Shown here: positions 1-36,100 of the stretch, in pieces
Layout: every line of letters starts with the position of its first letter
Numbering within the stretch: position 1 is the first letter of the stretch
From: Candidatus Omnitrophota bacterium
Lineage (GTDB): Bacteria > Omnitrophota > Omnitrophia > Omnitrophales > JAQTRP01
Assembly: GCA_028711765.1 (NCBI GenBank)
Contig: JAQTRP010000001.1
Location: 1-50,171 of the forward strand
DNA: 50,171 nucleotides
Direction: 5' to 3'
Notes under the pieces: model-generated
What the model saw: only the letters and a program-made list of their open reading frames with translations
Databases searched by the model: none
Told to the model about the DNA's origin: nothing
Program-made: the position numbers and the translations under genes

Positions 1-3000
1 ACTGAAAATTCAAAAAAAGGCACTAAGTCTTCTCCTTTGCTCTTTTTATCGAGAAAATCGCCACGCTTAAGAAGACTCAAAATCGGCAGCGATACTCCTT
101 TGCTGTCGCAAGCTTTGACAAGATTATCTATAAATTGTCGCGACGCGAATTTTTTATAAATATTTTCATAATCTGTAAAAAGAGAACCGAGCCTGTCGAG
201 GTCCTCTTTCAAACCGGCAGCGTAACCTTTGCTCTTTTTAATAGCGTCTTCAAGTACATCCTCGATACCCGGAAGGTGTAAGCGCGCGGCTTCAACCATT
301 TCCTGTACTTCCCGCCCAAGTTTAAGTATCGGATAAATCTGGCTATTAACTCCATCCGGTTGGCTCTCCATTGACTTCATCCACTCTTCTGTGTTCTCGC
401 GGTAGCCGGGCCTCAAAAAACCTACGGTTAAATGTTGCGCCGCATCTGCTATCGCAAATGTTTTGTAAGTTAGGTTCTCCGGGGCATAAGAATCAAAAAA
501 AACCGGCTGGGCAGAGGCAGAAGAAACTTCAAGGCTCTGTTTGAGGGCATTAAAACGCTTCTTTAGAGTACTTAAGCTGTTCTTTCCCTCCCTGTCTCTG
601 ATCGTTGAGCTCATTTGGTCGACTACCTTTTCAATTTCCAGCACCTTACTACAAAGTTCTCCCATAATCGAATTTGAGGTGCCAATGCAAGCTGCATTGC
701 CCCAACCTCCCAGGGTCTTGAAATAATTCGCAAAGCTATGGGTAACGTAAACAAGCCAGTTGTTAAGCTCCGACATATCTTTTACGCTTTCTTCAATCCT
801 CCTGACCTGCCTCACGCGCTCCATCCAATGTATACATTCGAGTATAAACCCGGCCTGCACGGCGAAAGAGCCGAGATCCTTAAAAAGTTCGGCGTGACTT
901 CTCTCGTTAAAACTATCGTGGTCCGGAAAGAAAAAGTTCTTGCCCGCACTGCCCCAGTTGTTCATCATAATAACGCCTATAACCTCACCTGAATGGCTTC
1001 TTAGGGGCAGATAAATAATCTCATTCGCCGGTTCGTCATATGCCGCGAAATCCTTATCAAGCTGATTGTAATCAAGTATTCCGTCAAAAAAATCGTTTTT
1101 CTCTTCTTTGACGAGCCGCTTGATCTCTCCTCTTTTCAGTATAACGAGAACACCGTCGCGAAAAACGACAATGCCGCGTTTTCTTAATTCCTCAAGCTGC
1201 CTCAAGGCTTTCTCGTCCCCCTTGAGGATCCTTAGAAACCAAGCCTTTTCATCCGTCAGGACACGCCCTTCCTTCCCGTGGCGACTCGGAAACTTATTCT
1301 GCTTCTCGCGCACAAATTCTCTGAATTTCAGAGCGCCGGCCTTTTTATCAACAACGTATTTACCGTCATCCTTATCAAGCACTACCGTATAAAAACTGAC
1401 CCCCGATATGCCTATAACCTTAATAAGATCACTCGTTACGGCCCCGACTTTCGTGGTCGCCATTTCCCAGTCAACGCTCTCCTCCTTCATAGAGACTGCG
1501 GCCTCGCAAAGCTTCCTGATAAGTTCACGTTCGGCCACGGCATTAACGGGATAGCTGGCGACTTTACCCGTAAATTTAGGGCCGAGGGCGTAATATGCGG
1601 CCGTCGGGTCAAGACGGAATTCCCACGCAACGCGGGGATGTTCTATGTGCCCCCCGGCTATAAGTCCATTGATGCTCTCCCGCGCCGCAATGGCAGAATA
1701 TCCGAAGCGGATTAAAATTTCGCTGCCCTTAGGCTTTTTCGCGATGATATTCCCGGCATTGGGGGTGAGGGTGCGCCTATCTGAGCTCTCCTCATTCCTT
1801 ACCGCCCTTACGACATTCTCAAATAAAGTAGTAAAGACAAGCGTATTGCGGTAAAACGGCTCTACCGTAAACTCATCAAATTCAAGGAATTCATTCTCAA
1901 TGCGGTAGCTGCAGGTAGCGACATTACCGTGGTCAAAAACCCGTCCGATCGCATCTCCCGGCCTGATAACTTCCGCTTTTATTTCAAACTCGCCCATTCC
2001 TTTAGGCCACCATCTAATGAGCTTGCGGTTCTCCCATGCCTTTTCATTCTTTTGACTGAGTTCCGCGGATGAAAGAACCGCCCTCCGCTTTGCCGCAAAT
2101 TCAGGGTCGTCAACGTTTACAAATTTGTTATTATTTATAAAAACTGTTAAAGGCTTGCTGTTTTTGCCTACCCAAACATTCAGTAACGGTTTCTCTTTTC
2201 CTTCCCCCGTTACATTGTCTTCCTCTATCCGGACTTGATAGATAACGCCGGCGGGCGGATCGTCTTTCATGGACGCCTTGAGACGGTGTATGGCGAGGTC
2301 TTCCCTCGGATTCCCGCCGCGGCGCCTGAAATCGCCTATAAAGAAAGCTCTAAGCTTTAAACGCTTCTCTGTTTCCGGATTAGCGGTGTTAAGCTTGGTT
2401 TCAAATTCGGCCATGACTTCATCGGGACTGAACGTCGATCTCTGTTCGATATAGCGGTATATCTTCCAAAGCTCCTCCCATTCGGCGATAAGATAGTTTT
2501 CAAGATCACTCGCGGGATTTCCACAGAAGGCATCGTAATTTCGTCTAGCCCTGTCTTTGAATTTAACGCAAAATTCCTTCCACTTCCTCAGCCATTCATC
2601 CGCCGAGGCAATAGATTTTTCTTTGGACGCGTCCTCTTTCTCGAAGCGATACCGAAGAAGAGAAATGAGGCTTTCTTCAAAAGTGGTTCTTAGGCCTTCG
2701 TCTTTGCCGTTAAGCTCATTGCGGAAGAAAACCCTCATAATATCACAGGCGGCGTCGACGGCTTTATGGCGGCTAAGCGCCCGGGCGGCTTCGCCACGCT
2801 CACCGGCATCTTTTGAATAAAGAAGGGTGCGCACAAGATCGGAGGTTTGTCTACTGTCTTCAGTGCCGAGACTATGCCCTGAGCCGGTTGAGGGATCTAT
2901 ATCTTTAAGGTCGCGGCCGAGATAAATAAGGCTCAAGAGCTTCTTCTCGTCCGGCCGGAGCTTGTTAGCCTCAATGTAACGACGGAAAGCCCTCTCCATC

Positions 3001-6000
3001 CCTTCTTGTGATGAATTGCATTCGGAGTAAAGGTGGTCAATGGCATCCACAACCCACTTTCTTTCTTGTCTATGCCAAACGTACCGAAAGGCCTCGCGGA
3101 CTTTGTTTACACGCTCAAGCACGTTTTCTTTCTCGCTATCCTTTCGGATGATAATATGCGCCACGGCATCGGCGAGAATTTGATTCTTTTCGGTTTCGGA
3201 AATTTCCTCTGAAAAGTCCGCGATTGTAACCAGCCTGCGGAGGGAAAAAAGATTCGTGGTATGAAACATTAAATGGCGAATAAGGAAAAGTATTTTACCC
3301 TTCGTGGTTTCATATTTCTGCATACTAAAATCAGAGAGAATCTCGCTTTTCTTATCGGCAATTAATCTGTCTTCCAGGGCAAGCAGGGAGAAGAAACCGA
3401 CACGTTTGTTTATTTTTTCAGAAGCATCTTCAAACAGTTCTTCGACGGAAAGACTTTGCGGTTGCAATATCCCCCTTTTCTTAAGAAGGTCGAAATATGC
3501 GCCCAGAACACTCGCGCCAAATCTGCTGCAGCCGATCTCCGGAATACCACCGAAATAAAAAACCGTTTTTGCGACTCCCTTAAGCAGATTGGCGTCGGAC
3601 AAAATCAGGTCAAACAATTCATAGGCGGCTCTGCTTCGCATGCCGGTGGCGCTCTCCGACATACCAACGAGCACCGGCAGCGTTGTTCTAGCAAGATTAG
3701 CATCATGAAACTTAACGAGCTCTTTAATTCCCGCTTCCCCTAAATCAAGAAGTAGCCCTATAAGACGTTTTTGCCTCTTGCGGATTTCCTTAATACGGTC
3801 TTCGGCAAGGCGTTCTTCAAAGGGGGAATCCGCATATTCGGCTTCATCCGTGCCGACCCTGTTATACCAAGCATTATCTCTTACCCTGCCGGCATCATTT
3901 TGGGCTGCTTCGCCCTTCCACTTCTCTACAAGGACAAAATATTCGATAATCTGAAGCGCAACCATAGAGGGCGGGAACAAGCGTAATTCTTCCCGTGCGG
4001 CTTCAAGCTTTAACGGCGGCGGCGTACCCGAAAGAATCACTATTAATTCGCTCGCCCTCTCCGTTTGAAACTGAGCAATGACATCCTTAAAAACACCGAT
4101 AATAATGTCCCTGTTGGTTTTAACAACCGGAGCCAAGCGGTAGAGGTGATGAATAAATTTATCATCGAAAAGACCGAGGTCTTTGCGTAATTTCCCGTAC
4201 TTACCGGCAAGTTTATAGATTACCTTGTTAATTACCTCGTCCGTGAGTAAACCTATTTCTCTGAGCAACTGATGAGCGCTTTCGATAATACGCTTCCTGT
4301 TAGCTTCAAGCCATGCCTTAAGCCTTTCGGGCGACATCCCGTTTTCTGCGAGAGCGCTCCACCCCCAGAAACGCAGGATGTACTTACCTGTACCGGGCTC
4401 TTCCTGAACGAAGATATCGTCCGTACCGTTAATAAGATGGTTACCGAGAAGAAGCCGAAAGAGATCGCTTTCAATAAATTGGGGACGGTCAACAAGATAT
4501 GGATTCCACTCGTCGTAGTTCATCCAGACAATCGGCGGTGAGGCAATACTGCCTCCCGGACACTCAACTGAAATCAACCTGTCTTTACAATCAACAAGTG
4601 GCTTTGTTTCTTCAAAACGCTTCCCACCCTGAAAAACGTAAGTCGTCGCATAAAGTGTCCCGGTCGTCTTGTTAAGCCATAACCTTATCGGACTGATATT
4701 GTTAAAACCCACCGCCTGAGCAATTTCATATATCGCCCTTTCTTTAAACACTCCAACTGCATCCGCCGGATTTAATACTTGTCTTAATTCGACAAGTTGA
4801 TTTCCTTTTTCAAAACACACTGTTTTATCGCCGTTTGTGGGCTCGCCTACAATTTGCCAGCCTTCCCCTATCAAATCCAACTCAAGCGGCAGCCCAACAG
4901 CTTCATCCGTCCTGCCCAGACTTCGCCCTCCATAAAAAACGGCGGATTGATAAATTGTTTCAAGCTCGGCAAACCGCGAAGGATTAAACTGTACCGGAAT
5001 CCCTTTTTCGCGCGCCAGTTCGGCTAAATTAATCGGCCCCAAATACTTCTCGGTCAGGAGAAGCTGCGGGTCGGCAACAGTCTCGGCCTCAAGCGGCGAA
5101 TCGTCGCCTCCTATGCGCTTCCGGTACAAAACTTCTTCCGCGAAATCGGGCTCGATTCGCGGCACTATAACAACGTATGATATTCCCCTTTCGCGAAGCC
5201 GCTTTTTTATGCCGTCCGCGTGGAAACCTCCGGTAACAAGGAAAGCGCGCTTATCCCTATCAAGCACCTTGCTGAAATTCCTTGCAAGCGTGCCGTCACG
5301 TTTCTTGGCAAATTTGTAGAAACGGAGCGCTTTTTGGAATAAAGTATTTGGCAATGTACCTGGTACCGGTCTCGCGGGTCCGGTACCAGGTACATTGCCA
5401 GATGTGCCAAGTACGCGGTCCAGAACATCAAGATCGGCGGGCGTGGCCTTAAGCTCGCAAATCCTCTTTACAGCCTGAAAAACCTCAAGTTCCTTAAGTA
5501 AAACCCTATCCTCATCGTTCCGGATAAGCTTTTCCGTGCAACGGTTTTTTACCTCGCTTATTTCACGGAAAAGCCGCGCCGCGTTAAGGCTGTTTTTGAG
5601 AGTAAGATACTCGATATAGCGGCTCAGGTTGGGGTAATTGAACAATTTAAGGGCGGAAACCTTAGGAATGGATTGCGGCTCTTCTCCTTTTTCTTTTAAG
5701 GAAAGAAGCCCGTCTTCGTGCTCCGGATATTTCCTAATAAAATTATCGATCTCTTGGTTAAGCTTCGTTTTGTTAATCCGCCCGTTGGCATAAATAAGAG
5801 TATAAAATGCGCGTAGCTCGTGAAAAGAACCTGTATCGATCTCGAGCTCCTCGGATATTTTTAAGAATTCGCCGAGGGGCTTTAGAAAATCTTTCGATGT
5901 TACGATAGTATCCTTTAATTTAAGCATCTCCCAAAGCTTCCCCGGCAGAATCTTCTTCGCCCGCTCGTTAAGACCGGCTTCTCTCTCGTTAAGTAGAGGC

Positions 6001-6554
6001 AACCATTTCTCCTGAAGCCCAAGGGCCTCGAGATATTGCCTGCGGTTTGATTCATAGAGCCTTTTATCCTCGATACCGCAGAAACGCAGATTTTTATCGG
6101 ATAAAACCGTAAAATATTCGGAGCCGCTTAAGAGCGCCTCATGGAGAAGAAAGTCGCTCGCGAGCCTAAGGTAATCCTTATGCCTGTAATTTCGGAAGGG
6201 CTTAAGGTCGGCCTCACCGCTGCCACCCTCGACCGCGATGGTGCTTAGGAAATAACGTTTCGAAAGATATTCTATAATTTCCGATATTTTCTTCTGCGCC
6301 GGGCGATTACAGTGGGCATCCTGAATATAAACGGCAAGCCCGCCTCTTGGACCGCTGAAGACTTCATCCACAAAACCAAAGTCTTTCGGAATCGATATCG
6401 TGCGAGGATCGTAAAACGCGGAAGGCGTTAAATTGCCGGACGGAGCGTAGCCCGGTATGGCACCGGGCATAAGGGGCGCCGACCATGAAATGGTAGTCGC
6501 GCTGAAACACACAACTATTACGGCTGCGATTATCTTAATCAGTCTTGAATTCAT
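1..6554 (-). CDS. Giant multidomain membrane-anchored protein, N-terminal 2184 codons only (continues past the left edge); paralog of the ORF at 27134..36766
   Basis: Not in the ORF track because no stop lies in the window. ATG at 6554..6552 (in-frame TAA at 6582..6584 upstream). I translated the frame (codon low coordinate = 0 mod 3) by hand to nt 3 and met no stop. The N-terminus MNSRLIKIIAAVIVVCFSATTISWSAP is a hydrophobic anchor. ...LAVYIQDAHCNRPAQKKISEII..TIAVEGGSGE.. and ..AFLVTGGFHADGI.. are collinear with IVIYIQDAHCLYEAQKSIVSII..LIATEGGSGK.. and ..AILVTGGFHKQGI.. of the 3210-aa ORF. The + strand ORFs listed in 541..5319 are short antisense shadows. Confidence 0.85.
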   Translation of the reverse strand, partial: MNSRLIKIIAAVIVVCFSATTISWSAPLMPGAIPGYAPSGNLTPSAFYDPRTISIPKDFGFVDEVFSGPRGGLAVYIQDAHCNRPAQKKISEIIEYLSKRYFLSTIAVEGGSGEADLKPFRNYRHKDYLRLASDFLLHEALLSGSEYFTVLSDKNLRFCGIEDKRLYESNRRQYLEALGLQEKWLPLLNEREAGLNERAKKILPGKLWEMLKLKDTIVTSKDFLKPLGEFLKISEELEIDTGSFHELRAFYTLIYANGRINKTKLNQEIDNFIRKYPEHEDGLLSLKEKGEEPQSIPKVSALKLFNYPNLSRYIEYLTLKNSLNAARLFREISEVKNRCTEKLIRNDEDRVLLKELEVFQAVKRICELKATPADLDVLDRVLGTSGNVPGTGPARPVPGTLPNTLFQKALRFYKFAKKRDGTLARNFSKVLDRDKRAFLVTGGFHADGIKKRLRERGISYVVIVPRIEPDFAEEVLYRKRIGGDDSPLEAETVADPQLLLTEKYLGPINLAELAREKGIPVQFNPSRFAELETIYQSAVFYGGRSLGRTDEAVGLPLELDLIGEGWQIVGEPTNGDKTVCFEKGNQLVELRQVLNPADAVGVFKERAIYEIAQAVGFNNISPIRLWLNKTTGTLYATTYVFQGGKRFEETKPLVDCKDRLISVECPGGSIASPPIVWMNYDEWNPYLVDRPQFIESDLFRLLLGNHLINGTDDIFVQEEPGTGKYILRFWGWSALAENGMSPERLKAWLEANRKRIIESAHQLLREIGLLTDEVINKVIYKLAGKYGKLRKDLGLFDDKFIHHLYRLAPVVKTNRDIIIGVFKDVIAQFQTERASELIVILSGTPPPLKLEAAREELRLFPPSMVALQIIEYFVLVEKWKGEAAQNDAGRVRDNAWYNRVGTDEAEYADSPFEERLAEDRIKEIRKRQKRLIGLLLDLGEAGIKELVKFHDANLARTTLPVLVGMSESATGMRSRAAYELFDLILSDANLLKGVAKTVFYFGGIPEIGCSRFGASVLGAYFDLLKKRGILQPQSLSVEELFEDASEKINKRVGFFSLLALEDRLIADKKSEILSDFSMQKYETTKGKILFLIRHLMFHTTNLFSLRRLVTIADFSEEISETEKNQILADAVAHIIIRKDSEKENVLERVNKVREAFRYVWHRQERKWVVDAIDHLYSECNSSQEGMERAFRRYIEANKLRPDEKKLLSLIYLGRDLKDIDPSTGSGHSLGTEDSRQTSDLVRTLLYSKDAGERGEAARALSRHKAVDAACDIMRVFFRNELNGKDEGLRTTFEESLISLLRYRFEKEDASKEKSIASADEWLRKWKEFCVKFKDRARRNYDAFCGNPASDLENYLIAEWEELWKIYRYIEQRSTFSPDEVMAEFETKLNTANPETEKRLKLRAFFIGDFRRRGGNPREDLAIHRLKASMKDDPPAGVIYQVRIEEDNVTGEGKEKPLLNVWVGKNSKPLTVFINNNKFVNVDDPEFAAKRRAVLSSAELSQKNEKAWENRKLIRWWPKGMGEFEIKAEVIRPGDAIGRVFDHGNVATCSYRIENEFLEFDEFTVEPFYRNTLVFTTLFENVVRAVRNEESSDRRTLTPNAGNIIAKKPKGSEILIRFGYSAIAARESINGLIAGGHIEHPRVAWEFRLDPTAAYYALGPKFTGKVASYPVNAVAERELIRKLCEAAVSMKEESVDWEMATTKVGAVTSDLIKVIGISGVSFYTVVLDKDDGKYVVDKKAGALKFREFVREKQNKFPSRHGKEGRVLTDEKAWFLRILKGDEKALRQLEELRKRGIVVFRDGVLVILKRGEIKRLVKEEKNDFFDGILDYNQLDKDFAAYDEPANEIIYLPLRSHSGEVIGVIMMNNWGSAGKNFFFPDHDSFNERSHAELFKDLGSFAVQAGFILECIHWMERVRQVRRIEESVKDMSELNNWLVYVTHSFANYFKTLGGWGNAACIGTSNSIMGELCSKVLEIEKVVDQMSSTIRDREGKNSLSTLKKRFNALKQSLEVSSASAQPVFFDSYAPENLTYKTFAIADAAQHLTVGFLRPGYRENTEEWMKSMESQPDGVNSQIYPILKLGREVQEMVEAARLHLPGIEDVLEDAIKKSKGYAAGLKEDLDRLGSLFTDYENIYKKFASRQFIDNLVKACDSKGVSLPILSLLKRGDFLDKKSKGEDLVPFFEFS
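5350..5399. repeat. GTACCTGGTACC-core palindromic element, copy 1 (loop subtype A), located inside a coding region
   Basis: GGCAATGTACCTGGTACCGG-(TCTCGCGGGT)-CCGGTACCAGGTACATTGCC, with perfect 20-bp arms. It is read in frame by the giant ORF as GNVPGTGPARPVPGTLP. Confidence 0.9.
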
Positions 6555-6769
6555 TGGGATGTAACGACTTTCCGTCAAACTTTATTTAAGTCTAATATTA
6601 AGAGAGACAAAAAAATAGTTATCCCCTGTAAATAGAAGGGTTTAACTATTGTATCGAATATGCATAAATTATACTATATAAAGGGATAAATTACAAATGG
6701 AAAATCGACTAGGAAATATAGACCTGGGAAGTGTAACTCGTTATGATTGAATGAGTTGTAAGGAAGGCA

Positions 6770-7120
6770 CTACTTCTCGTAAAAAGTGAACGTTTTGAGG
6801 ATCTTCTTTTTGACTACCCACTGCGCTTTGAGACCCCTGGGAAAATGGATGATATCGCCTGCCAGGAAACGTTTTATTCTGCCATTCTTAAGTTTAACCT
6901 CGGCCTCGCCATAAAGTATGGTGCAGGTCTCGTCACCGGTATATTCCCACTTAAAGGCCCCGGGGGTGCAAGACCAAATGCCTGCCGAACAACAACCGTC
7001 TTTCGATTCAAATAAGACGACGCCCTTGGCCACCGGATTCCCCGAAACAATGTCCTCCCGCGGGATAGGCATGGCCTTCAGCGCGGTTTTCTTAACGCGG
7101 CGAATAAATGCGTCTCCCAT
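6770..7120 (-). CDS. Small single-domain cupin protein (DUF861/EutQ-like)
   Basis: 116 aa, ATG start. A beta-rich core (GIWSCTPGAFKWEYTGDETCTILYGEAEV...GDIIHFPRG) resembles small cupins. Family assigned by eye. Confidence 0.55.
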   Translation of the reverse strand: MGDAFIRRVKKTALKAMPIPREDIVSGNPVAKGVVLFESKDGCCSAGIWSCTPGAFKWEYTGDETCTILYGEAEVKLKNGRIKRFLAGDIIHFPRGLKAQWVVKKKILKTFTFYEK

Positions 7121-7144
7121 ACATTGTGCTCAATACAGTCTGGA

Positions 7145-7348
7145 TTAAAACTTTTCCGTTTCGCGCCGCTGATCCCGGCGGGCTTTCCGCTTGCCCTCTT
7201 CGCGTTCACGCCTGCGCTTGTCGGATCGCTTTTCAAACCGGAGCGACTTCTTATAATCCTGAATGATCCGGTGCTTCTGGCATTTTTTCTTAAAAAGACG
7301 TAGGGCGTCTTCTATTCTCTGTCCCTCTCGCACAACAACTTTTACCAC
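7145..7348 (-). CDS. rpsU: 30S ribosomal protein bS21
   Basis: 67 aa and very basic. VKVVVREGQRIEDALRLFKKKCQK...LRFEKRSDKRRRE matches the bS21 pattern. GTG start with AGGTGA 7 nt upstream. Confidence 0.85.
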   Translation of the reverse strand: MVKVVVREGQRIEDALRLFKKKCQKHRIIQDYKKSLRFEKRSDKRRREREEGKRKARRDQRRETEKF

Positions 7349-7455
7349 GCCTAATTCACCTCTCTTCTCTTTACTGGCGTTATTTCGTCGAGTTTTTACT
7401 GAGCCCCTCGACAGAGTTTACCCTGAACAAAACCGAAGGGCTTGGGGTAAAAGGA

Positions 7456-7902: not shown

Positions 7903-8065
7903 CAAACTCCTCCTCTTTTTAGAAATGGTTTAAAACGATTAAACAGCCCAAATAAACGCGAATAATCTAACAACTAACTCATTAAAAAGCAAGTTCTTTT
8001 GGAATCACAGATTATCACAAACAGAACTACACAGATGGCCACAGATGAAAATCGACTAGCAAATA

Positions 8066-9637: not shown

Positions 9638-9658
9638 GACAATCTCTTAAAGCGCCGG

Positions 9659-11200: not shown

Positions 11201-11218
11201 ATCTTCTTCCTTTGTTTA

Positions 11219-11247
11219 GTAGGGACAGAACATTGTTCTGTCCCTAC
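11219..11247. repeat. Perfect 13-bp-stem hairpin just upstream of the LarA-like gene
   Basis: GTAGGGACAGAAC-ATT-GTTCTGTCCCTAC, ending 19 nt from the ATG at 11200. Function unknown. Confidence 0.6.
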
Positions 11248-11297
11248 AGCCGTATTTATAATCCGGCACCAGGAGCCGGTTCCATAAGTCAAGGTTG

Positions 11298-11349
11298 CCT
11301 TTACGTACCTGGTACCGATCCCATTAATCCGGTACCAGGTACGTAAAGG
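11298..11349. repeat. GTACCTGGTACC-core palindromic element, copy 2 (loop subtype B, inverted)
   Basis: CCTTTACGTACCTGGTACCG-ATCCCATTAATC-CGGTACCAGGTACGTAAAGG. It is flanked by degenerate half-sites at 11263..11276 and 11373..11388. Confidence 0.9.
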
Positions 11350-11445: not shown

Positions 11446-11485
11446 AAAAAAACATCACCCCGCCGTAATACATGGCGGGGTGATG
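11446..11485 (-). terminator. Rho-independent terminator of cspA
   Basis: Minus strand: CATCACCCCGCC-ATGTATTAC-GGCGGGGTGATG (12-bp GC-rich stem) followed by TTTTTTT, about 30 nt after the cspA stop. Confidence 0.75.
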
Positions 11486-11515
11486 TCTATAGAAGAGAAA
11501 ACGCGAAGAAGAGAA

Positions 11516-15768: not shown

Positions 15769-15822
15769 GCGATCGTGTACCTGGTGCCGGATTAATTAAC
15801 TCGGTACCAGGTACACGATCGC
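15769..15822. repeat. GTACCTGGTACC-core palindromic element, copy 3 (loop subtype B)
   Basis: GCGATCGTGTACCTGGTGCCGG-ATTAATTAAC-TCGGTACCAGGTACACGATCGC (a few mismatches near the loop end of the stem), in the spacer between the ABC-2 permease gene and trkH. Confidence 0.9.
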
Positions 15823-23299: not shown

Positions 23300-23351
23300 C
23301 CTTTATGTACCTGGTACCGGATTAACGGTTCCGGTACCAGGTACATAAAGG
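23300..23351. repeat. GTACCTGGTACC-core palindromic element, copy 4 (loop subtype B)
   Basis: CCTTTATGTACCTGGTACCGG-ATTAACGGTT-CCGGTACCAGGTACATAAAGG, between the cdaA stop and the PilZ gene. Confidence 0.9.
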
Positions 23352-24167: not shown

Positions 24168-24237
24168 TAAAGCTCTCCTTCATACCGTCATTGCGTGAAT
24201 TGTGTACCTGGTACCAAATTTATTATAGACGTAAAAG

Positions 24238-25839: not shown

Positions 25840-25851
25840 AAAGGTGCCCTA

Positions 25852-25901
25852 AATTATGTACCTGGTACCGGTTTCGCGGGTTCGGTACCAGGTACACAAT
25901 T
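25852..25901. repeat. GTACCTGGTACC-core palindromic element, copy 5 (loop subtype A)
   Basis: AATTATGTACCTGGTACCGG-TTTCGCGGGT-TCGGTACCAGGTACACAATT. The loop is nearly identical to that of copy 1. Confidence 0.9.
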
Positions 25902-25927
25902 TCACACGCGGGATTTCGCAATGACGG

Positions 25928-27029: not shown

Positions 27030-27137
27030 CAGTGGTCAATCGCCAGTTGTCAGTCATCAGTAAAAGATTAAGCGGTAAGAAGTAAGGAAAAGCGCAACCG
27101 GCTAACCGGCTCACTGGCTTACCGGCTAACCAATTAA
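27030..27137. repeat. Degenerate heptamer array followed by an octamer array at the 3' end of the giant ORF
   Basis: Plus strand 27030..27085: CAGTGGT CAATCGC CAGTTGT CAGTCAT CAGTAAA AGATTAA GCGGTAA GAAGTAA. Plus strand 27098..27137: CCGGCTAA CCGGCTCA CTGGCTTA CCGGCTAA CCAATTAA. The last unit contains the TAA stop (27136..27134). Confidence 0.85.
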
Positions 27138-30100
27138 GCCGCGCGCGCTATGGCCGCCGCGCTGTCGCGTATGGCCTCGAGGCGGTCAAGATCTACTTCT
27201 ACGATGTAACAATTATTCTCAACTCGTATCGACTTTACAATATCGGGAAACTTGCCGAGAACGGCCTCGGCATCAAAAGCGACTCTAAGCAAAAGCGCAA
27301 AGAAAGGATTCACGGAAGCCCTTGTTTGCTTTGCCATATCAAAACTGAAAAACAAGGTAAGTTTGTCTTTGGCCCTTCGAGCCACGATCTCGGTCAATTT
27401 TTTGGCATCCTCAGTTTCAAGTGACTTCATAACAAAGACCGCGTTATTTATACCTTTGGCTTCCTCGAGCCATTTCGCGATGTCCCTCTTGGTTGCAACG
27501 TCAACTCTCCTAATTATGCGCAAGTTCTTCCCCAGAACAAACCCGGATTTAACTTCTCTCAGCCACACCGGAATATTGCTTACATCGTCGCTATCGCCGG
27601 AAATCACAAGCCTGCTGTCCTGGCCTAGCTTCAAGGCCAAGGCCTGTATCAACTGCTTCTGCGCAACCTTATCAAGACCTGTCGTAATAGAATTGAAATC
27701 AATAAAGAAAAATGCCGGCGTGCCGGATGGTTTTAATTGATCAAGCGGTACATCAAGAAGGTTGACCGACAGACCCAACGCCTCAGATAGATCGCCGGGC
27801 TCCATGCCGTACGCTTCCATCCACGCGGCGGGCCTTACCATCTTTTCCGGCGTGCCGCTCGCGTAAATAAGCGAGGCGTCGGTGAGTATTTTAGCGGCAG
27901 ATTGTATAAACGCACCCGTTTTGTCGGGTACTATTTTCTGCCCCTCCGGCGCTATCGCATTGTAATCCGCGACCAACCCTTCAATTTCTCTTACCGTTTC
28001 CTCATTAATGCCTGCTTCTAATATGCGGCATAGTAAAGCGCGGCTGTCACTATATTCCAAAGTTTTCTTTCTAATCCATCCCCGGACAAGGCTCTCAACT
28101 CTATCGTGTTTGAGACTTTCCCAATTTGCCAAAACGCTAACGACATCAGCCGCCGCCGGCTCTTTGATTCCTATATCAGCTCCCGGCAAAACTTCTTTTA
28201 GCATGTAATAAGCGATAACATCCGCCGCCGTCTTTTCCATCCCGAGCGACCGCCCCGCTGGGCTAAGGATTCCGGGCTTCGACGAACTAGTCAGTTTCGT
28301 CAAGTCAATAGTGATTGTAATATTTCCGTCAGGACCTTCACCAGCTCCCAGCATATAATCCACGTTGGGTCTTGCGCCATAAATTTGTCCGAGGTATTTT
28401 TGATAAAAGCCAAAGGCGTCCTGATAGGCGGAAATCGTGGCCTTCGTCATTCCGTATTCCTTTAATTCCCCGAAAAACACACCCATAAGGAATGAACCCA
28501 ACCCTCCGTCTCTTGCATCTTTCTTTACAAAAAGCCATTTAAGGTTACCTGTATTGTTCCTGCGGTCGATTTCGATCAAACAGCAGCCCTGTGTTTCTCC
28601 TTGAGAATCAACATATACGAAGAGTTCGTCAAAAAATTTAAGCTCAGGATTACTTGGGTCCTCGCGGCTAAACGAATTCACCGATTCAAGAGCAGAATCT
28701 TCGATGGCAAGGCCTTGAAGAAGCTTTTTGGCCTCGGCATATCCTACGCCTGCTTTTTCCGCGGCATCCAAAAACTGCCGGAAATTTAATGCCGCACCTT
28801 TATCCTCGTGAGCATATTTTGTCCCTTGACGCACTGCCTCTTGCAGCTCGGTTTTAAACCCCAGCGAGGCGCCGGGCGTGATTTGCGCAGCGTTTCTTTC
28901 ATCGATAAAAGCTTTATACGTTTTCAGCTTGGCAAGTAACTCTTTTTCTTTCGAATCTGTGATTAATCCCTGAACGCCGGCCTGCTTGATCGCAGCCTCA
29001 TAGAAGCTTCTTGTTGCTTCGTTCGGAACTAAGTACGCTTCATGAAAAGATGCGGGTATGTCTTTCCCAAAGAAGTCCTCAAGTTTACCATCTTCGCTGT
29101 TACGCCTTAAAACAACATATAGCGGCCCAAATGGCCCTGCTGAGGTAGGCGTTTGTGTTGTTCCCTTATTTAAAGTACTGTAATCTACCACACCGCTCTT
29201 GCCCGTTTTTATACGGCCGTCAAGCATTATAGACAATAAATTAACAACGCCGCCTTTCTCAAGGCTTACACCATGCGCCAAAATACCCTCCCTGTCTCCC
29301 AGCCTAAGCAGATTTTCTTCTGGGCCACCCTCGCGTAAGTCGGGCAACAACTCAACTTTGCTAAAATCCACCTTGTAAACTGTTCCGTCAATCACTTGAA
29401 GAACATTACCAACCATACCTGCCCTCGAAGGTTCATGTTCTTTAAACCATTCAAAAAGATCGCTTTTTTGCTCCGGGCTAAGCGTTGCTATCTGTGAGAC
29501 AAATTCACCATTTCTCCTAAGCGCGCCTAAATTACGCGCAAACAATTCGGCAAGATCAAAGTCGAGCTTTTCCATAAACCCATCTTTTACAAATTTCTCC
29601 CCCAGAGCGCGGCCTTCCAACACAGCCTTGGCTTGAAGTTCTTTTGCGGCGCGCTCTTCGGTTTCCCTAAGCCTTCTAACGGCTTCACTATAGGCCGCCT
29701 CGTCAAACCTAAGCGGTTTCTGTACCGCATTTAATAAATCGGCAAGGTCTTCTCCTGATGGTTCATCGGCTACCGTCAAGTAAGCGCCATTTTCGGTCAA
29801 TTCGGCTTTTGCGTCATCCGCCAGATCCTCCAGGCGCAACAATCTTTCCACTAAAACATCCCTTTGCAAAACTAAATTCCGGCCCATATTACCTGCCGCG
29901 GGTTTTTCGCCTTGCAAATATTCTATTTGGTCATTAAGACCGCTGAGTTGGTTTTTGATTTTCTGCGTCTCTATTTCAGCGGTATCGAGTAAAGCTTCCA
30001 GGTGGATTTCGGCAGCCTCTTCCGTTTTCAGCGAAGGAACCTCTTGCACGCTATATCTCACAGCCTCGCCGGGCTTTGGTTCTATTCCTTCCGCAAATCT

Positions 30101-33100
30101 TTTTTGATTAGCAACAATTTCTTCTTGCTCCTTCACCTCTTTTCTAATATTAATCAATTCCGAAAGCTGGCGAGATATGTCATTCTTAAGACTGCCCGTA
30201 AGAACTATAGCGCGCGCCATCATTCTGGAGTAAGGATCCGACACCTTCGCGTCGTAACTCAACATCGGAACCTCGCCAATCAAGGCATTCGCCAAAACAA
30301 TGTGTTCAGCAACCCTGCCGAGCAATCGGGCCTCTCTCTTATTTATAAGATTATCTCCCGATGCAGCATTGTAAGACGCGACCCATGACTGCATAAACAT
30401 ATAAGCAAGCCTCGCGCAAGCTTCAACGTCGCCGCTATTTATAAGATTCCACTCGCTCTCGCTTACAACAATAGTTTCATAACCTTTCGCCGGATCTATA
30501 AATCTGACCGGCCCCTTAATGCCGGGTGTGGTTTTATCCGGGACAGTAAATAATTCCGGATACCGATAGCGCCTGACGGCGTCTTTCCCGAGTCTCGGCC
30601 CTACTGCTTCTTCCGCCGCATTTTTCACGACTGGCGGCGGCCCTTCAATCCAACGGCCTCCAAGTTTCGCGAGGGCGATTATTCCCTGCGCTAAATCTCT
30701 ATCAACGTCTCCCTCCCAGCTATAATTGCCCTCGAACTCCTCCCCCAGCGAGGCGCCGGCAGGAGCAGCAGGTATACCAGCCGCTTCCGCGGCTTTGGCC
30801 AATATACTGTCGGGCATAATAATATTGGGCAAAGGTGTAGCAGCAATTGTTATCGGCTCACCAACGGAAGCTTTCTTAATAAGTTCCTTGTGCATCTTGC
30901 CGGCCGGCCCAACCCATATCCACTTTGACCAAGTCCCGTCTTTCAAATTGATAAGCTCTATGCCAATAAATTCCCCTAATACTTGCACGTTTTTGTAATA
31001 GATATCCTTAAAATCATCGGTTCCTATATTAATAAGCCCGCAAAACTCGCCCCGATTTCTATCAGAGCTTATGATTTCGAAGGCCTTCTCGACAAGTTTC
31101 TGACCGTCAACGTTCGCCTTAAGGTTCCCAAGAACGTCCGGCCCGGCCTTTCCTGTTCTTGCGAGATAATTGCGGTATTCCTCAAGAATCTGACGCGTGG
31201 CCCTAAAAGCAAGAGATTCATCCAAAAGCGGCGGCATACCAGGGCTTTTGATGTTGTTTACAACATGAACCAACTCGTGATAGATCTTTTGCGCTATCCA
31301 ATAAACCTTATCCGCTCTTGAACCTTCTTCTTTCTCAAAAGCGTCTAATCCTACAACAACAAGTTTGACACCCCGGGGCACCATGGCAAAACTGTTGTCG
31401 TCTAACCCCCTCACGAAAAGTACGCTTGCGCCGTCCGCCTCATCTCCAAGATTGAATTTCTTCTTTAGTAAGTTGTGAGCGTCCCGGACCATTCCTCTGA
31501 ATTCAGGGTTATTTGAAACTCCTACTGACCTTTCCACCATCTCCCTTGTGATATTCGGCACTTTGTATCCGGTAATATTCATCAGGAAATCAATCGGATA
31601 TATACGTGTATCTATGGAAGGAGGTAACCTTTCACTAGAAAATGCGCTGCCATTTTCTAACCGCTCATCCATAATCCTGTCCTCGAGCAGCTTTTTAAGA
31701 TCAGGGTCTTTCACTTTTCTGCGGGCGCCTTCGAGAGCGGCTATTATTTGCCGGCTGGTTCCTTTGGGAACGAGAACTGAATATTCTCCGGTTGGGCCTC
31801 TTATAATTCTAATAGACCCGGTTTGTTCTTGAGCAACGCTCTGCCCCCCAACGCCCAAGACGAAAGCCGTTCCTAATGCACCTAAGCTAACAAAAAATTG
31901 CCTCCTGTTAAAACCTTTACCAGCCTCAGCCTGTGCGGTCCCCAGCGAGGCGCCCTCCCCGCCAATGGGCACGGTTTTCTGCAGCCAGCCCCGTACAAGA
32001 TTTATCTGATCTTGTTTAAGGTTCGTATTCTCATTTTCAAGAGCATCATTTAAAAATTCCGATAGTTTGCTATCATCAGGAAAGGCCGAACGAAAAGCCT
32101 TACCGATACCATCCAGAATTTGCCTTCTGCTTCTCTTAAGGTCATTCCTGTCTTCATAGTAAAGAAACAGCCTGGACAACAAGAAGTCTTTGCTTCTCTG
32201 ACGCGATCCTCTAAGTAATCCCAAATCGACAACAACAAGATCGGGATTTTCGGGGTCTCTCTGTTTTCCACGAAACATAATGTTGTTAGGATGAACATCG
32301 TTAAAGTATTCTTCCCTCCCCTTGGCTTTACTGTTCTGTATTCCGAGTTGAATGTAGGTTGAAACTACCGTTTCTCTTTCTTTGGGACTTAACGGTTGAA
32401 TTTTAACGGCATCTTTTACCGTTAACCCGTCAATCCACTCTTCTACATAGCTGTTCCTGTAAGGCGAACCGAATCGTGGTATAAATTTAGTCCACTGTAA
32501 AACTTGCAGTGATGCTATTTCATTATCTTCAATCGCGCCTTCCTTGAAAGCGAACAAAAGCTTAAGCTCTCCATCCGGACTTAACGCTTTCTCATAGATC
32601 TTCCTGTATTGATCTTTTATCCTTAGCCGAATTTTAAATACGTGTTTCTCGGTTGACGAAATAAAATACTTCATCTCAACTTTCTCAAGGTGCTCAGGTA
32701 AGGCGCCCGAAATGCCGTACACATTCTCTAAATTTCTGCTAAACTTAAATGCGTCCCCAAATAAATCTTGCACTTTATCAATAATTTCTTCCTTACGGCC
32801 TCCAACGTAACTATCCCCTGCCTCATTAACCCACGCGTCTTCTTCCAAACTCAAAGGTAACTCAACCGCCCCCAGCGAGCGGCCGGAGAGAGCAGTGGTG
32901 ATTCTAATCAAATCTTCTCGTGTTGCGCCTATGTTGCTACTCTGTAACTGACTGAGCAGTTCTTTTTTAACGGCCCCTGCTAATGCCGGAGAATATTCCA
33001 TGCCTTTTGCTTCTGCCTCTCTCATAACGTAATTTTCCACAACGTCCGGCTGCTCAAATATATAAACCATAACCTGAGCAGTTGACATACCTTGTATCCC

Positions 33101-36100
33101 GATAAAGTTCCCCATAGGCAAAAGCTGGGGCGTATTTTCCTTGCTGCCGAAAACCTTTGCCGCAGCCTCCTCAATTGCCCCCGAATCCTGGGGCACTATC
33201 TTCATCGCCTTTATCGACCCAAACATTGCCACCGCTGTTTCGGTCGCAAAAGGCTTTTTATCCACTGCTATTTTTACTGCAGTCGTTTCGGACGGGATAA
33301 TGGTAACTTTAGTGGGTAATTCAGGGCTGGTGGGCGTAGCGGTAACCCCAGCCCCTTTCGGCTCAACGCCGATCTCTATCCATCGAAAACCCGCTTTGAA
33401 CCGATCAAAAACAAACGTGCTAATAACGGTAGCGACGGTATCTTTTTCGCGGGAGGATCTCTCAATCTTAAAGCGCGGCCTGCCTTCTTCATCGGAATCG
33501 TAATATAAAAGTACCGAATACGCGGTGCTTGCCTCAAAATCCGCTTTTGTCTTTCCCACGGCTCCCAAAATACATTCCTCGATAAAATCGCTAAAACCTT
33601 CCGCGCCGACATAGCTCTTATACTTTTGATTAACGAGCCGTTCAACCTCTTGCCGAATTCCTTCATCTGAATCTATCGCGTAAAAAATAATCGGATTTTC
33701 CTCCAGCGGCACTTTCATAAAATCTTCCTCGCCTTTCTCCTTATCTCTAAGTATACTTTTCAGTGCCGAGACCTTTGCTTTGAGTTCTTTTATCTTGTCT
33801 TCATATTCCTTTTCTTTTCCTGAAATATCTCCGACGTTATTATCCAGAATAAATTGAAGTGTATCTATTTCCCTTTCGCTTCCGGTTATCAGATTCATCA
33901 GAACTTCATCCGGCTCATGCGTAAGCGTGGCGGGAGCAGATGCCGGAGACGTAACACCGGAAGGCGCTAACGACACATCCGTCTCAGCGGTTAGCTTTTT
34001 TCCAGTCGCTGAAGGAAGCGGCAAACCGCGAAGGCCTTCCATATCCAAATGCCCTTCCAAATCTTCTTTGGAAATGCCATGTCTCCGGGCTGCTTTACTA
34101 ATAGCCTCCTCTAAATAATTTTTTGATACGGGACCGCCGGTCCTGGTTTTCTCGGCTATCGCATCTTTAAGGGCTTCCGCGGCTTTCTCCACTTTCGCCC
34201 CCAGTGAAGCACCCTTGATCGCTTCCATATCCTTATTCGTCATAGCCCGGCGGGTCCTTGCTTTTTTCGCTTCCAATTCCTTTATAACCGCCTCGGCAGC
34301 TTCTTTCATTCCCAGCGACCGGCCTGCCGGTGCAGCCGAGGCGAGGTTTGCAACAAGTGCGGTAAGGAGCGGCAGGTCTTCATCGCGAAGCCCCCTATCT
34401 TTCAGGGTTTCCCTTATGACTTTCTCAACGTTGCTGTACATCTCTTGGTCTGCCGGGCTCATCTTGTCGTACGCCACTTTAGATACAGCGCTTAAATTGA
34501 CTCCCTTCATTTGGCCTACCTTGTCGACAAGCCCTTTTATATCTTCTTCCCCAAGACCCAACTGGCCCAATCGCTCCCTCGCGACAACTGTTGTGCCTTC
34601 GAGAAGCGCTGTTCTTCCCGCCGGAGCTTGGGCAATTGCCGCTTTGACTAAATTCCTGAAACCATCTTCCGTAATTCCCTTCTCTGAAAGCGCCCCCGAG
34701 AGATAACCCCACACCTCGGGCCACGTTCTAATCAATTCTTCCAAAGCCTTGCGGAATTTTTCATCTTCTCCGGCCCGCTTATTTAAAAATTCAATTATGC
34801 CCATCCCTAAGTTCTGCTTAGCGGCGTCATTTAACTGGCCCAAAATGTATTCGGCCGGATCACCGCTCGTAAGCAAGGCATCGTCGGCGAAGAGAATCAT
34901 CATAGCCTTTATAAATTCCTCGTGTCCTTTCTCGCCGACTGCCGCAAGCACGGGAACGGCTATCGTGTAACGCGAAAGTTCGCGGTCGATAATGTCGAAA
35001 AGGTCGTCCACGTAACGGGTGTAGCGGCCCGCCTCGGCAATCTTGCCCTGCTTCATAGCCTCATCGATAATGCGGACCCGCCATGTAACGAGGCTGTTGT
35101 GGAGATGGGCGTAGTCGGAGCGCGGCGCGCGCCGTGCGAACTCGGCTTCGAGTTTGTCGGCGTTCAGTGTATATTCCCCGCGCATAACGCGGAGATAGCT
35201 TGAGTCGTCAAAGTTCGAGAAAGAGGGAGAGACGATGATGTATGAGATATTGTTCTCTCTGAAATGGCGGGTTATGCCCTGCTTGTGGAATCCTCCCGTT
35301 ACCAGAATGGCGGCCTTGGCCTTTTCGGAGCTTACTAAGTCCTCGAAATTATTATAAATTACTTCTTCGCGCTTGATTGCCAACTCATAGAAACGCTCCG
35401 CCCACTTGAGGTCGAGTTTAAATTGTGTCTTCTCGCCGAACTTCGAGAGGAAATCATTGAAAACTTTGATATCGTAAAGGCCGCGGGACTTTTCGTATTC
35501 CGCGAAATCATCCCTTGCAAGCTCAAGCTTGGCGATATTCTCAAGAACTGAGAGCCTCTCGTATAAAGAATCGAGGGTTTTATCGTCTTCGCCCTTAAAC
35601 ATAGAGGACTTGATTTCTTTGGAGACGGACTTTATCTCGCTAAAAAGCTCGGTGCCTTGCATTTCGCGGATATCGAGCGGAAAGTCGAAGACGTCTTTCA
35701 TTTCGCTCTGGGGGCCTTCTTCAAGACCGAGCTTTCTGAGAACCTCAAAAAGCTCTCTCGCATAGGAAAACCTTGAGGCGCGGCCGATTTGGTAGGACTG
35801 TTTTATCCTTGCAAGCTCGCGCTGTTTTTCCTTGTGGGTCCTGTCCTTAGCGAAAAATTGCGAGAGGGCCGCCTCGGCTTTATCGATAAACTGTCTGAAG
35901 CGCTTAGAATCGCTCCCATCGGCCTTTTCTTCGGCGTTCACATTCTGGATAAGAGAAGCAAGCTTGGGATACCTAGCAAGGAAGAGTTTTTTCTCAACCG
36001 ACTTATCTCTTATGACGCAGATCAGATCTATAAGCGAAATTTTGCCTTCCTTATAGTTACTAAGAGCGGCGTCGAATTGTTTCAACTCTCCGGAGTAAAT

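What the first reader, a model, noticed from the sequence alone, without database searches (positions are those of the whole stretch)
5350..5399. Intergenic-type palindromic repeat inserted in frame inside the giant paralog
The other six full copies of the GTACCTGGTACC palindrome are all intergenic. This copy, with perfect 20-bp arms, lies within the coding sequence and is translated as GNVPGTGPARPVPGTLP (aa 386-402) with no stop or frameshift. It falls in a stretch where the two paralogs do not obviously align, shortly upstream of the conserved RFY..A.KR block (ALRFYKFAKKRD here, AERFYELAIKRE in the 3210-aa ORF). So it looks like a tolerated insertion into a loop of the head domain. A 20-bp perfect hairpin inside an mRNA could also stall ribosomes or be an RNase site.
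Basis: seen in the sequence. Interest (0 to 1): 0.65.

Follow-up and report, generated by a model that had tools for sequence, protein, structure and literature searches.

The report
Mobile hairpin repeat inside giant gene
A 52-base perfect DNA hairpin that normally sits between genes has landed in frame inside a giant gene, where it encodes a floppy loop; it belongs to a family of hairpin repeats linked to a dedicated transposase (REP/RAYT) and sharing a 13-base core across many bacterial phyla.

Summary
Window 5349-5400 is a perfect palindrome (21-bp arms, 10-nt loop). It lies in frame in a minus-strand ORF of more than 2184 aa and encodes GNVPGTGPARPVPGTLP. Six other full copies and one half copy are intergenic, five of them 1-27 nt after a stop codon.

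The coding copy matches the intergenic copy at 25858 in 36 of 38 bases, loop included. None of about 30 distant homologs has the peptide. AlphaFold puts it in a disordered loop.

What it is: a compact REPIN, two inverted REP units. The core GGTACC-W-GGTACC recurs in at least 61 loci from more than 10 phyla. In five genomes it sits next to a RAYT-type Y1 (IS200-like) transposase gene, on both sides in four of them. Two near-identical Verrucomicrobial loci differ by a 58-nt indel containing the hairpin.

A second in-frame case exists in Bdellovibrionota DusC. There the arms are conserved at the nucleotide level and show one compensatory synonymous pair.

Intragenic REPs are already known. New here are the GTAC-type core shared across phyla and its conservation inside a coding sequence.

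Not shown: an empty-site ortholog, a RAYT gene in this genome, or any effect on the mRNA.

The parts
5349..5400 (-). Intragenic REPIN: 52-nt perfect palindrome (21-bp arms 5349-5369 and 5380-5400, loop 5370-5379), read in frame as GNVPGTGPARPVPGTLP (aa 386-402)
   Evidence: RNA fold -41.5 kcal/mol, z = -10.4; model R1, 74 bits; stop-free in all six frames
5354..5395 (.). 42-nt block (AT + 38-nt core + AT), 14 codons, shared with intergenic copy 25858 (3 mismatches in all); the likely inserted unit
   Evidence: inference from direct comparison of the two copies
5404..5414 (.). REP-like half-site GTGCCAAGTAC (2 mismatches to GTACCAGGTAC) 4 nt beyond the stem; encodes VLGT, giving VLGT..VPGT..VPGT. 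Either a decayed third REP unit or a target-like site
   Evidence: about 0.12 such matches expected per copy's flanks
1..6554 (-). Host gene: giant ORF (more than 2184 aa, runs off the window) with a signal/TM N-terminus and a ~470-aa head domain (IQDAHC...EGG...TGGFH) that has no Pfam match
27134..36766 (-). 3210-aa paralog (27% identity over the head domain) without the palindrome
11298..11349 (.). Intergenic REPIN copy (loop subfamily B)
15769..15822 (.). Intergenic REPIN copy (subfamily B), 27 nt after the stop codon at 15850
23300..23351 (.). Intergenic REPIN copy (subfamily B), 3 nt after the stop codon at 23355
24204..24215 (.). Solo REP half-copy (GTACCTGGTACC without a partner arm)
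25851..25902 (.). Intergenic REPIN copy (subfamily A), closest relative of the coding copy, 25 nt after the stop codon at 25928
44131..44182 (.). Intergenic REPIN copy (subfamily C, arms start 23 nt apart rather than 27), 7 nt after the stop codon at 44190
48405..48460 (.). Intergenic REPIN copy (subfamily C), 1 nt after the stop codon at 48462

Best explanation
The palindrome is a compact REPIN: two inverted REP units of core GTACC-W-GGTAC separated by a 10-nt spacer. It belongs to a multi-copy repeat family that normally sits just downstream of stop codons.

Inferred: such elements are mobilised in trans by a single-copy RAYT (a Y1 HUH tyrosine transposase of the IS200 type) acting on hairpins in single-stranded DNA, without target-site duplication. 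One copy entered the coding sequence of the giant gene.

Inferred: it survived there for three reasons. The shared block is 42 nt, which is 14 codons. This loop subfamily has no stop codon in any frame. In the frame used, each arm reads Val-Pro-Gly-Thr, a flexible peptide, and it falls in a disordered linker between two helices of the head domain.

Shown: family membership, the reading frame, the loop location, and the RAYT association and indel polymorphism in other genomes.

Not shown: the insertion event itself, a RAYT gene in this genome, and any consequence of the -41 kcal/mol hairpin for the mRNA.
For: (1) Family. There are 7 full copies and 1 half copy in 50 kb against 0.08 expected motif matches. 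All fold at -25 to -43 kcal/mol. The outer stems differ between copies but stay complementary: 93% of cells paired, 9 pairs changed on both sides, 0 of 500 shuffles as high.

(2) The coding copy matches copy 25858 in 36 of 38 bases, including the loop.

(3) The peptide is absent from the paralog and about 30 homologs.

(4) AlphaFold2 gives residues 384-402 pLDDT below 50, as coil between two helices.

(5) The coding copy is stop-free in all six frames. The usual outer stem (...GGTACATAAAGG) would give VPGT-stop in this frame; the coding copy has ATTGCC there instead.

(6) Placement is strongly biased to extragenic sites just 3' of genes: P = 1.5e-5, with 5 of 6 copies 1-27 nt after a stop codon.

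(7) RAYT link. Y1_Tnp ORFs are flanked on both sides by hairpins with the same core in L002, L015, L095 and L096, and on one side in L050. Their best NCBIfam hit is NF047646, REP-associated tyrosine transposase, at E = 1e-14 to 1e-20. JGI names homologs 'REP element-mobilizing transposase RayT'.

(8) L050 and L099 are orthologous loci about 95% identical that differ by a 58-nt indel containing the REPIN.

(9) A second in-frame case exists in Bdellovibrionota DusC, in the same VPGT...VPGT frame.

(10) Intragenic REPs in flexible linkers are documented (PMC3733652, PMC6006769).
Against: No empty-site ortholog or strain variant was found. All relatives of the giant protein are at most 28% identical.

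The linker is shorter (63 aa) than the family norm (75 aa), so a simple insertion is not enough to explain it.

The canonical 5' GT[AG]G guide tetranucleotide of REPs is absent. The foot is GTAC.

The RAYT-like proteins score below NCBIfam's equivalog cut-off (52-73 bits against 80).

The extra 5-7 bp of perfect outer complementarity (TGGCA/TGCCA), specific to this copy, is not explained by plain transposition.
Confidence: 0.75

Rival explanations
1. The hairpin is functional where it sits, not merely tolerated. It could be an RNA or DNA element inside the coding sequence, such as an RNase III-type cleavage site, a translation pause, or a RAYT or other protein-binding site that tunes expression of the giant gene, and it is kept by selection. 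This overlaps with the best explanation as to origin and differs on why the copy persists.
For: In five DusC orthologs of 65-81% amino-acid identity, 8 of 10 amino-acid-invariant arm codons are also nucleotide-invariant. Elsewhere in the gene the figure is 20 of 166 (Fisher P = 6e-6). The two codons that vary form a compensatory synonymous pair, GGT to GGC and GTA to GTG. The window's coding copy is as intact as any intergenic copy, with 21 of 21 pairs. Stems of 20-23 bp are about two turns of double-stranded RNA, roughly the length RNase III acts on (my own knowledge). Hairpins are conserved at syntenic sites in Thermoleophilia and Gaiellaceae-type loci.
Against: The DusC hairpin has decayed in other lineages (L093, L094), so it is dispensable there. 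Nucleotide identity could equally come from repeated conversion or re-insertion by the RAYT. No expression or cleavage data exist. There is no U-tract and no terminator call at the site.
Confidence: 0.2
2. The family is not mobile DNA. It is a set of regulatory hairpins (3'-end or terminator-like structures, or paired operators for a dimeric DNA-binding protein recognising GGTACC-W-GGTACC) that arose locally. On this view the coding copy formed in place by template switching or conversion.
For: Copies sit 1-27 nt after stop codons. In Bdellovibrionota the stems are flanked by A and T tracts, like bidirectional terminators. Each arm is itself a near-palindrome suited to a dimeric protein. Halobacillus has promoter-proximal arrays with a 28-nt period. 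Outer stems are perfectly symmetric but differ between copies, which suggests that one arm is corrected or copied from the other. The coding segment is not a net length gain.
Against: Loop-sharing subfamilies within the window indicate that whole units were copied. Window copies lack U-tracts (direct reading). RAYT genes are flanked by the same hairpins in several phyla. There is a clean 58-nt presence/absence polymorphism between L050 and L099. No candidate binding protein was identified. The FapR-box lead did not hold: fapO is TTAGTACCTAGTCTTAA.
Confidence: 0.1
3. This is ancestral coding sequence that happens to be palindromic, or a repeat-induced assembly artefact that joins two unrelated ORFs at a REP.
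For: Repeats do break assemblies: the Logan contig ends 50 nt before copy 11305. No read-level data were available.
Against: The 36 of 38 identity, loop included, to an intergenic copy rules out coincidence. A second assembler gives the identical sequence. Both flanks belong to one conserved domain that is contiguous in about 30 homologs, and the frame is kept. None of the homologs carries the peptide.
Confidence: 0.03

Closest known systems
REP / REPIN elements with RAYT (TnpA-REP) transposases (E. coli, Pseudomonas; PMC2817692, PMC3116915, PMC6006769)
   Same: Short hairpin-forming extragenic palindromes in many copies, mostly downstream of ORFs. The inverted doublet plus spacer forms a long hairpin with compensatory changes. 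A Y1 HUH transposase gene is flanked by the same repeats. BIME-like arrays occur (Halobacillus).
   Different: The hairpin foot is GTAC rather than the GT[AG]G guide tetranucleotide. The arms are perfect and each is itself a near-palindrome, (GGTACCW) repeated twice. At about 38-52 nt the unit is shorter than the REPINs described in Pseudomonas (about 71 bp between the two 16-mers). The 13-nt core is the same in more than 10 phyla, whereas REPs are described as species-specific (PMC6006769), and this holds although the flanking RAYTs are only 27-28% identical. The RAYT-like proteins fall below NCBIfam's equivalog cut-off.
Intragenic REPs (Di Nocera et al. 2013, PMC3733652)
   Same: REPs lying entirely inside ORFs of known proteins, thought to be neutral when in flexible linkers. 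They occur as singles, dimers and clusters.
   Different: Those are GTAG- or CGTC-tagged families. Here the family is GTAC-type, the host is a giant protein of unknown function, and comparative data (the DusC case) show nucleotide-level conservation with a compensatory change.
Rickettsia palindromic elements (RPE; reviewed in PMC10969869)
   Same: Palindromic repeats inserted in frame into unrelated protein-coding genes, encoding a peptide compatible with the host fold.
   Different: RPEs are about 100-150 bp, specific to Rickettsia, and frequently intragenic. Here the element is about 42-52 nt, only 1 of 7 copies is intragenic, and it is linked to a RAYT.
Uptake signal sequences (USS/DUS) and cyanobacterial HIP1 (from my own knowledge; no paper was consulted for these)
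   Same: Short over-represented motifs found as inverted pairs after genes and, in preferred reading frames, inside coding sequences.
   Different: There is no evidence of a role in DNA uptake. The motif occurs across phyla and is coupled to a transposase gene.

Membership tests
REP/REPIN-RAYT system | Short (about 20-65 nt) repeated palindrome able to form a stable hairpin | tested here: met
   Seven copies with stems of 20-23 bp, -25 to -43 kcal/mol, z = -6 to -10
REP/REPIN-RAYT system | Multi-copy and predominantly extragenic, typically downstream of ORFs between genes transcribed in the same or converging directions | tested here: met
   6 of 7 full copies are extragenic in a window that is 88.5% coding (P = 1.5e-5). 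Five lie 1-27 nt after a stop codon. The genome-wide copy number is unknown.
REP/REPIN-RAYT system | Doublet of inverted REPs plus spacer; spacer and stem vary with compensatory changes | tested here: met
   The core is invariant. The outer stem covaries: 9 pairs changed on both sides, 0 of 500 shuffles as high. There are three loop subfamilies.
REP/REPIN-RAYT system | Cognate RAYT (Y1 HUH transposase) gene flanked by the same REPs | tested here: inconclusive
   Met in other genomes: L002, L015, L095 and L096 on both sides, L050 on one side.
REP/REPIN-RAYT system | Conserved 5' GT[AG]G guide tetranucleotide at the hairpin foot | tested here: not met
   The foot is (T/G)GTAC in all window copies and in the 61 loci.
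REP/REPIN-RAYT system | Evidence of mobility (presence/absence polymorphism or excision intermediates) | tested here: inconclusive
   A 58-nt indel containing the REPIN separates the about 95% identical loci L050 and L099. Nothing comparable is available for the window's own organism.
Rickettsia palindromic elements (RPE) | 100-150-bp element families of Rickettsia encoding a conserved peptide, frequently intragenic | tested here: not met
   The element is 42-52 nt, the host is not Rickettsia, and 1 of 7 copies is intragenic. It is an analogue, not a member.
Intrinsic (Rho-independent) terminator | GC-rich stem with a short loop, followed directly by a U-tract | tested here: not met
   There is no T-run after the window copies, and the scan does not call the site (and direct reading). 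Bdellovibrionota versions do carry A and T tracts.
Rfam RNA families | Match to a curated covariance model | tested here: not met
   No matches at gathering threshold in the whole window.

The most novel reading that the evidence does not exclude
GGTACC-W-GGTACC hairpins would be an ancient partnership between a REPIN family and a RAYT clade, spread across phyla. Its DNA core has stayed fixed while the transposase diverged to about 27% identity. Its copies, including those inside coding sequences such as DusC and this giant gene, would be kept by selection or by RAYT-driven conversion because they do something for the host or for the element. That could be setting mRNA 3' ends or processing sites, or marking single-stranded DNA. 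In this reading the copy in the giant gene is a built-in control point for a very long mRNA and not a neutral scar.
Probability: 0.2. Interest if true: 0.7.

Novelty: new variant of a known kind. Interest (0 to 1): 0.5.

Why it matters
In-frame REP insertions are a known route by which selfish hairpins add loops to proteins, so this case alone is modest. Three things make it more useful.

First, the same 13-nt core is found from Firmicutes to Actinomycetota, Bdellovibrionota, Verrucomicrobiota and Planctomycetota. It flanks RAYT genes that are only 27-28% identical. This contradicts the usual picture of REPs as species-specific and GT[AG]G-tagged, and it offers a simple substrate for studying how RAYTs recognise DNA.

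Second, the DusC comparison gives a clean test case: a hairpin is preserved at synonymous sites inside a gene and carries a compensatory change.

Third, for annotation, VPGT...VPGT peptides and perfect hairpins inside ORFs of uncultured lineages can be recognised as REPIN footprints and not mistaken for assembly errors or novel motifs.

Tried and rejected
1. Close orthologs or strain variants, to look for an empty site. The protein search gave only 5 hits at 25-28% identity. The metagenome scan gave 27 loci at 22-28%. The exact-protein contig look-up returned one Logan contig identical to the window. The empty-site test was therefore not possible.

2. Rfam: nothing in the window.

3. A viral-contig scan for the hairpin: 0 hits.

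4. A literature search for the motif string found only unrelated primer sequences.

5. The FapR operator, recalled from memory as similar. The published fapO is TTAGTACCTAGTCTTAA and shares only GTACC, and the genomic contexts do not fit. Rejected.

6. Intrinsic terminator. There is no U-tract in the window copies and the scan does not call the site.

7. Integron attC sites, CRISPR repeats, MITE inverted terminal repeats with target-site duplications, and DNA uptake sequences were considered from anatomy. No target-site duplication, no array and no cassette structure is present. Rejected.

8. Fold of the head domain. Foldseek against the PDB gave nothing significant (best E about 1). Weak hits to EreA/ChaN-like folds (3b55, 5t09) are not evidence.

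9. A common neighbouring gene across the 61 loci, sought by all-against-all BLAST. No universal neighbour emerged, only syntenic groups and, decisively, the small Y1_Tnp cluster.

10. RAYT on plasmids: only distant hits below 40% identity, which were uninformative.

11. More distant RAYTs (L097 Desulfuromonas, L098 Acidobacteria) lack the core. L098 is instead flanked by inverted repeats beginning GGTGTCAGGT.
Full report
**1. The observation**

Window 5349-5400 reads TGGCAATGTACCTGGTACCGG / tctcgcgggt / CCGGTACCAGGTACATTGCCA. This is a perfect palindrome with 21-bp arms and a 10-nt loop.

It sits in a minus-strand ORF that starts at ATG 6554, behind a signal/TM-like N-terminus, and is still open at base 1 (more than 2184 aa). 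The hairpin is read in frame as G386-NVPGTGPARPVPGTL-P402.

The 12-mer GTACCTGGTACC, allowing 1 mismatch, occurs 14 times against 0.08 expected. These make 7 full hairpins (5356, 11305, 15777, 23307, 25858, 44140, 48416) and a solo half at 24204. A covariance model built from the seven copies, run with filters off, finds nothing else in the window.

The six other full copies are intergenic. Copy 23307 overlaps only a GTG-start extension of a PilZ ORF whose domain starts after a later Met. With 88.5% of the window coding, 1 or fewer of 7 copies in coding sequence has P = 1.5e-5 under random placement. Five of the six intergenic copies lie 1-27 nt downstream of a stop codon.

A Logan assembly of run SRR22315508 is 100% identical over window 3139-11248, hairpin included.

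**2. Anatomy of the family**

All copies share T/G-GTACC-T-GGTACC ... GGTACC-A-GGTAC. The 5' arm always has T at its centre and the 3' arm always has A. Each arm is itself a near-palindrome, (GGTACCW) repeated twice.

As RNA the copies fold at -25 to -43 kcal/mol (z = -6 to -10). The coding copy folds at -41.5.

Loops define three subfamilies. Subfamily A is 5356 and 25858 (TYTCGCGGGT). Subfamily B is 11305 (reverse complement), 15777 and 23307 (ATTAA...). Subfamily C is 44140 and 48416 (GTATCCAAGCA). Whole units have therefore been copied.

Outside the invariant core, 6-10 further base pairs differ between copies but remain complementary. Of all cells, 93% are paired, 9 pairs change on both sides, and 0 of 500 shuffles reach these values. 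Sliding the 3' partners by 1-3 columns drops pairing to about 30%.

I saw no target-site duplication in the flanks shown.

**3. Is the coding copy secondary?**

Its 38-nt core matches intergenic copy 25858 in 36 of 38 bases, loop included. With the flanking AT on each side, the shared block is 42 nt, or 14 codons.

The giant protein's head domain is conserved on both sides of the hairpin (IQDAHC...EGG before it, RFY..A.KR...TGGFH after it). This holds in the 3210-aa paralog (27% identity) and in about 30 distant homologs. None of these has the VPGT...VPGT peptide.

AlphaFold2, run on a 7-sequence alignment (mean pLDDT 69.8), gives pLDDT below 50 and coil for residues 384-402. These lie between helices 372-382 and 403-434.

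The coding copy is stop-free in all six frames. The family's usual outer stem (...GGTACATAAAGG) would read VPGT-stop in this frame, but the coding copy has ATTGCC there.

Four nucleotides beyond the stem lies a degenerate REP-like half-site, GTGCCAAGTAC, with 2 mismatches. The protein therefore reads VLGT..VPGT..VPGT.

Two caveats apply. All available relatives are at most 28% identical, so no empty site could be examined. The distance between conserved anchors is 63 aa here, 64 aa in the paralog and 75 aa in most homologs. The event therefore replaced or was accompanied by loss of ancestral residues, and was not a pure gain.

**4. What the repeat is**

For a random 24-base pattern, well under one match is expected. 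The loci come from Halobacillus, Herbinix and other Clostridia, Atopobiaceae, Thermoleophilia/Gaiellaceae, Bdellovibrionota, Planctomycetota, Verrucomicrobiota, Acidobacteriota, Gemmatimonadota and others. Many genomes have several copies.

Only the 12-13-nt core is shared between lineages. Inner and outer stems are lineage-specific but complementary. A few hits are tandem heptamers, and Halobacillus has arrays with a 28-nt period.

Most low-GC copies lie a few nucleotides after stop codons. Several are conserved at syntenic sites across species.

The key result came from Pfam. ORFs next to hairpins in L002 (Pseudobdellovibrio) and L050 (Verrucomicrobiia) are Y1_Tnp, IS200-like transposases.

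- The L002 gene is flanked by a hairpin on each side.
- Its homolog in L015 is flanked on both sides too.
- Two further homologs fetched by protein identity, L095 and L096, are also flanked on both sides.

These proteins carry the HUH (NHYHL, THYHL, NHFHL) and Y...NPV motifs. Their best NCBIfam hit is NF047646, 'REP-associated tyrosine transposase', over the full profile length for the L002 and L015 proteins and its C-terminal half for L050 (E = 1e-14 to 1e-20). They score below the 80-bit equivalog cut-off. Their homologs are named 'REP element-mobilizing transposase RayT' by JGI.

More distant RAYTs (L097, L098) lack the core.

L050 and its about 95% identical relative L099 differ by a 58-nt indel that contains the hairpin. 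The indel lies beside a CCAGGTAA site resembling a REP half.

The repeat therefore behaves like a REPIN family served by a RAYT clade. This matches published descriptions of doublets forming hairpins with compensatory changes (PMC3116915) and of RAYT genes flanked by their REPs (PMC2817692, PMC6006769).

The window itself contains no RAYT. The 27 loci encoding relatives of the head domain contain no copy of the core.

**5. A second in-frame case with comparative depth**

In Pseudobdellovibrio (L019) and Bdellovibrio (L026) the hairpin lies inside the DusC gene, in the linker after GRGAxRNPxxF. It reads KVPGTFxxxKVPGT, the same frame as in the window.

Among 120 orthologs, about a dozen have this peptide. 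Some close relatives show same-length decayed versions, and distant ones show no trace.

In five orthologs of 65-81% identity, 8 of 10 amino-acid-invariant arm codons are also codon-invariant, against 20 of 166 elsewhere in the gene (Fisher P = 6e-6). The two variable codons are GGT to GGC in one arm and GTA to GTG in the other, and they pair with each other.

So in that gene the hairpin is kept at the nucleotide level. The cause could be selection, or repeated conversion or re-insertion. Two of the five sequences were found by exact pattern match, but the other three were chosen only by peptide.

**6. Mechanism, and what is inferred**

Shown:
- family membership
- the reading frame
- the location in a disordered loop
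- the extragenic bias
- the RAYT association and an indel polymorphism in other genomes

Inferred:
- A RAYT encoded elsewhere in this genome moved a subfamily-A unit, as single-stranded DNA, into the giant gene.
- The copy persisted because it is 14 codons long, has no stop codon, and encodes a Pro/Gly/Thr-rich peptide in a linker.

Unknown: whether the -41 kcal/mol, 21-bp stem affects the mRNA. It has no U-tract and is not called as a terminator. Its length would suit RNase III (my own knowledge).

Unexplained: the extra TGGCA/TGCCA complementarity specific to this copy, and more generally the perfect but copy-specific outer stems. Possible causes are insertion into pre-existing palindromes, correction of one arm against the other by template switching, or selection for pairing.

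**7. Comparison and novelty**

Intragenic REPs and RPEs are documented, as is the argument that they are harmless in flexible linkers (PMC3733652, PMC6006769, PMC10969869). The finding as stated is therefore a new member of a known phenomenon.

Four points depart from the literature I could search:
- a GTAC foot in place of GT[AG]G
- a very compact, perfect REPIN whose arms are themselves palindromic
- a core identical across more than 10 phyla, although REPs are described as species-specific and the flanking RAYTs are only 27-28% identical
- nucleotide-level conservation with covariation inside a coding sequence

A text search for the motif found no prior description. That library is incomplete, and figures are not searchable.

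**8. Verdict**

The element is best described as an intragenic REPIN of a GTAC-type, RAYT-associated family. Interest is moderate (0.5). The specific case is ordinary for its kind. The family it reveals is the more interesting result.

Noticed in passing
window 18152-18205 and 19237-19290: A second, unrelated hairpin repeat with a shared arm (TTTGTCATTGGGATTTTGGATTT) sits at two gene junctions of the ABC-2 / ABC_tran transporter operon.
   Followed up: no
window 24204-24215 and 24240-24322: A solo REP half-copy with no partner arm, followed by a 33-nt imperfect AT-rich inverted repeat. It may be a disrupted REPIN.
   Followed up: no
window 1-6554 (-) and 27134-36766 (-): Two giant paralogs (more than 2184 aa and 3210 aa) share a ~470-aa N-terminal domain with invariant IQDAH, EG and TGGFH motifs. 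The domain has no Pfam match and no significant PDB fold match. At least 27 metagenomic loci encode relatives, usually as 540-900-aa proteins. The 3210-aa protein has a GNAT acetyltransferase domain at aa 2710-2793.
   Followed up: partly
window 11248 / L062 end: The independent Logan contig ends 50 nt before REPIN copy 11305, but reads through the coding copy at 5349-5400.
   Followed up: no
L012:1050-1240, L017:5390-5520, L004:145-374: Halobacillus carries arrays of 4-7 REP-like sites with a strict 28-nt period and mixed orientation in promoter-proximal intergenic regions. They include the variant GGTGTCAGGTACC and resemble BIME clusters. The same GGTGTCAGGT motif begins the inverted repeats flanking an Acidobacterial RAYT (L098).
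   Followed up: partly
L019:5630-5689, L026:5814-5851, L090-L094: A REPIN lies inside the DusC gene of Bdellovibrionota. Its arms are identical at synonymous sites across species, there is one compensatory synonymous pair (L092), and decayed versions occur in L093 and L094.
   Followed up: yes
L050:1150-1210 vs L099:1950-1965: A 58-nt presence/absence polymorphism of a REPIN lies upstream of a RAYT gene in two about 95% identical Verrucomicrobial loci. It sits next to a CCAGGTAA site that resembles a REP half.
   Followed up: yes
L021:2-45, L048:2651-2690: Tandem heptamer tracts (GTACCTG)n switch to (GTACCAG)n in Acidobacteriota and Gemmatimonadaceae contigs. This suggests the REP arm can expand by slippage.
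   Followed up: no
L015:7009-7030, L095:2041-2075: RAYT ORFs run into their own 3' REP, so the protein ends in ...SVPGT. This is the same peptide that the repeat contributes to host genes.
   Followed up: no
window ~11500-11720 (-) and 11452-11486: A small cold-shock (CspA-like) gene, missed by the 150-aa ORF list, is followed by a GC-rich perfect 13-bp hairpin that may be its own terminator. REPIN 11305 lies about 165 nt further downstream.
   Followed up: no
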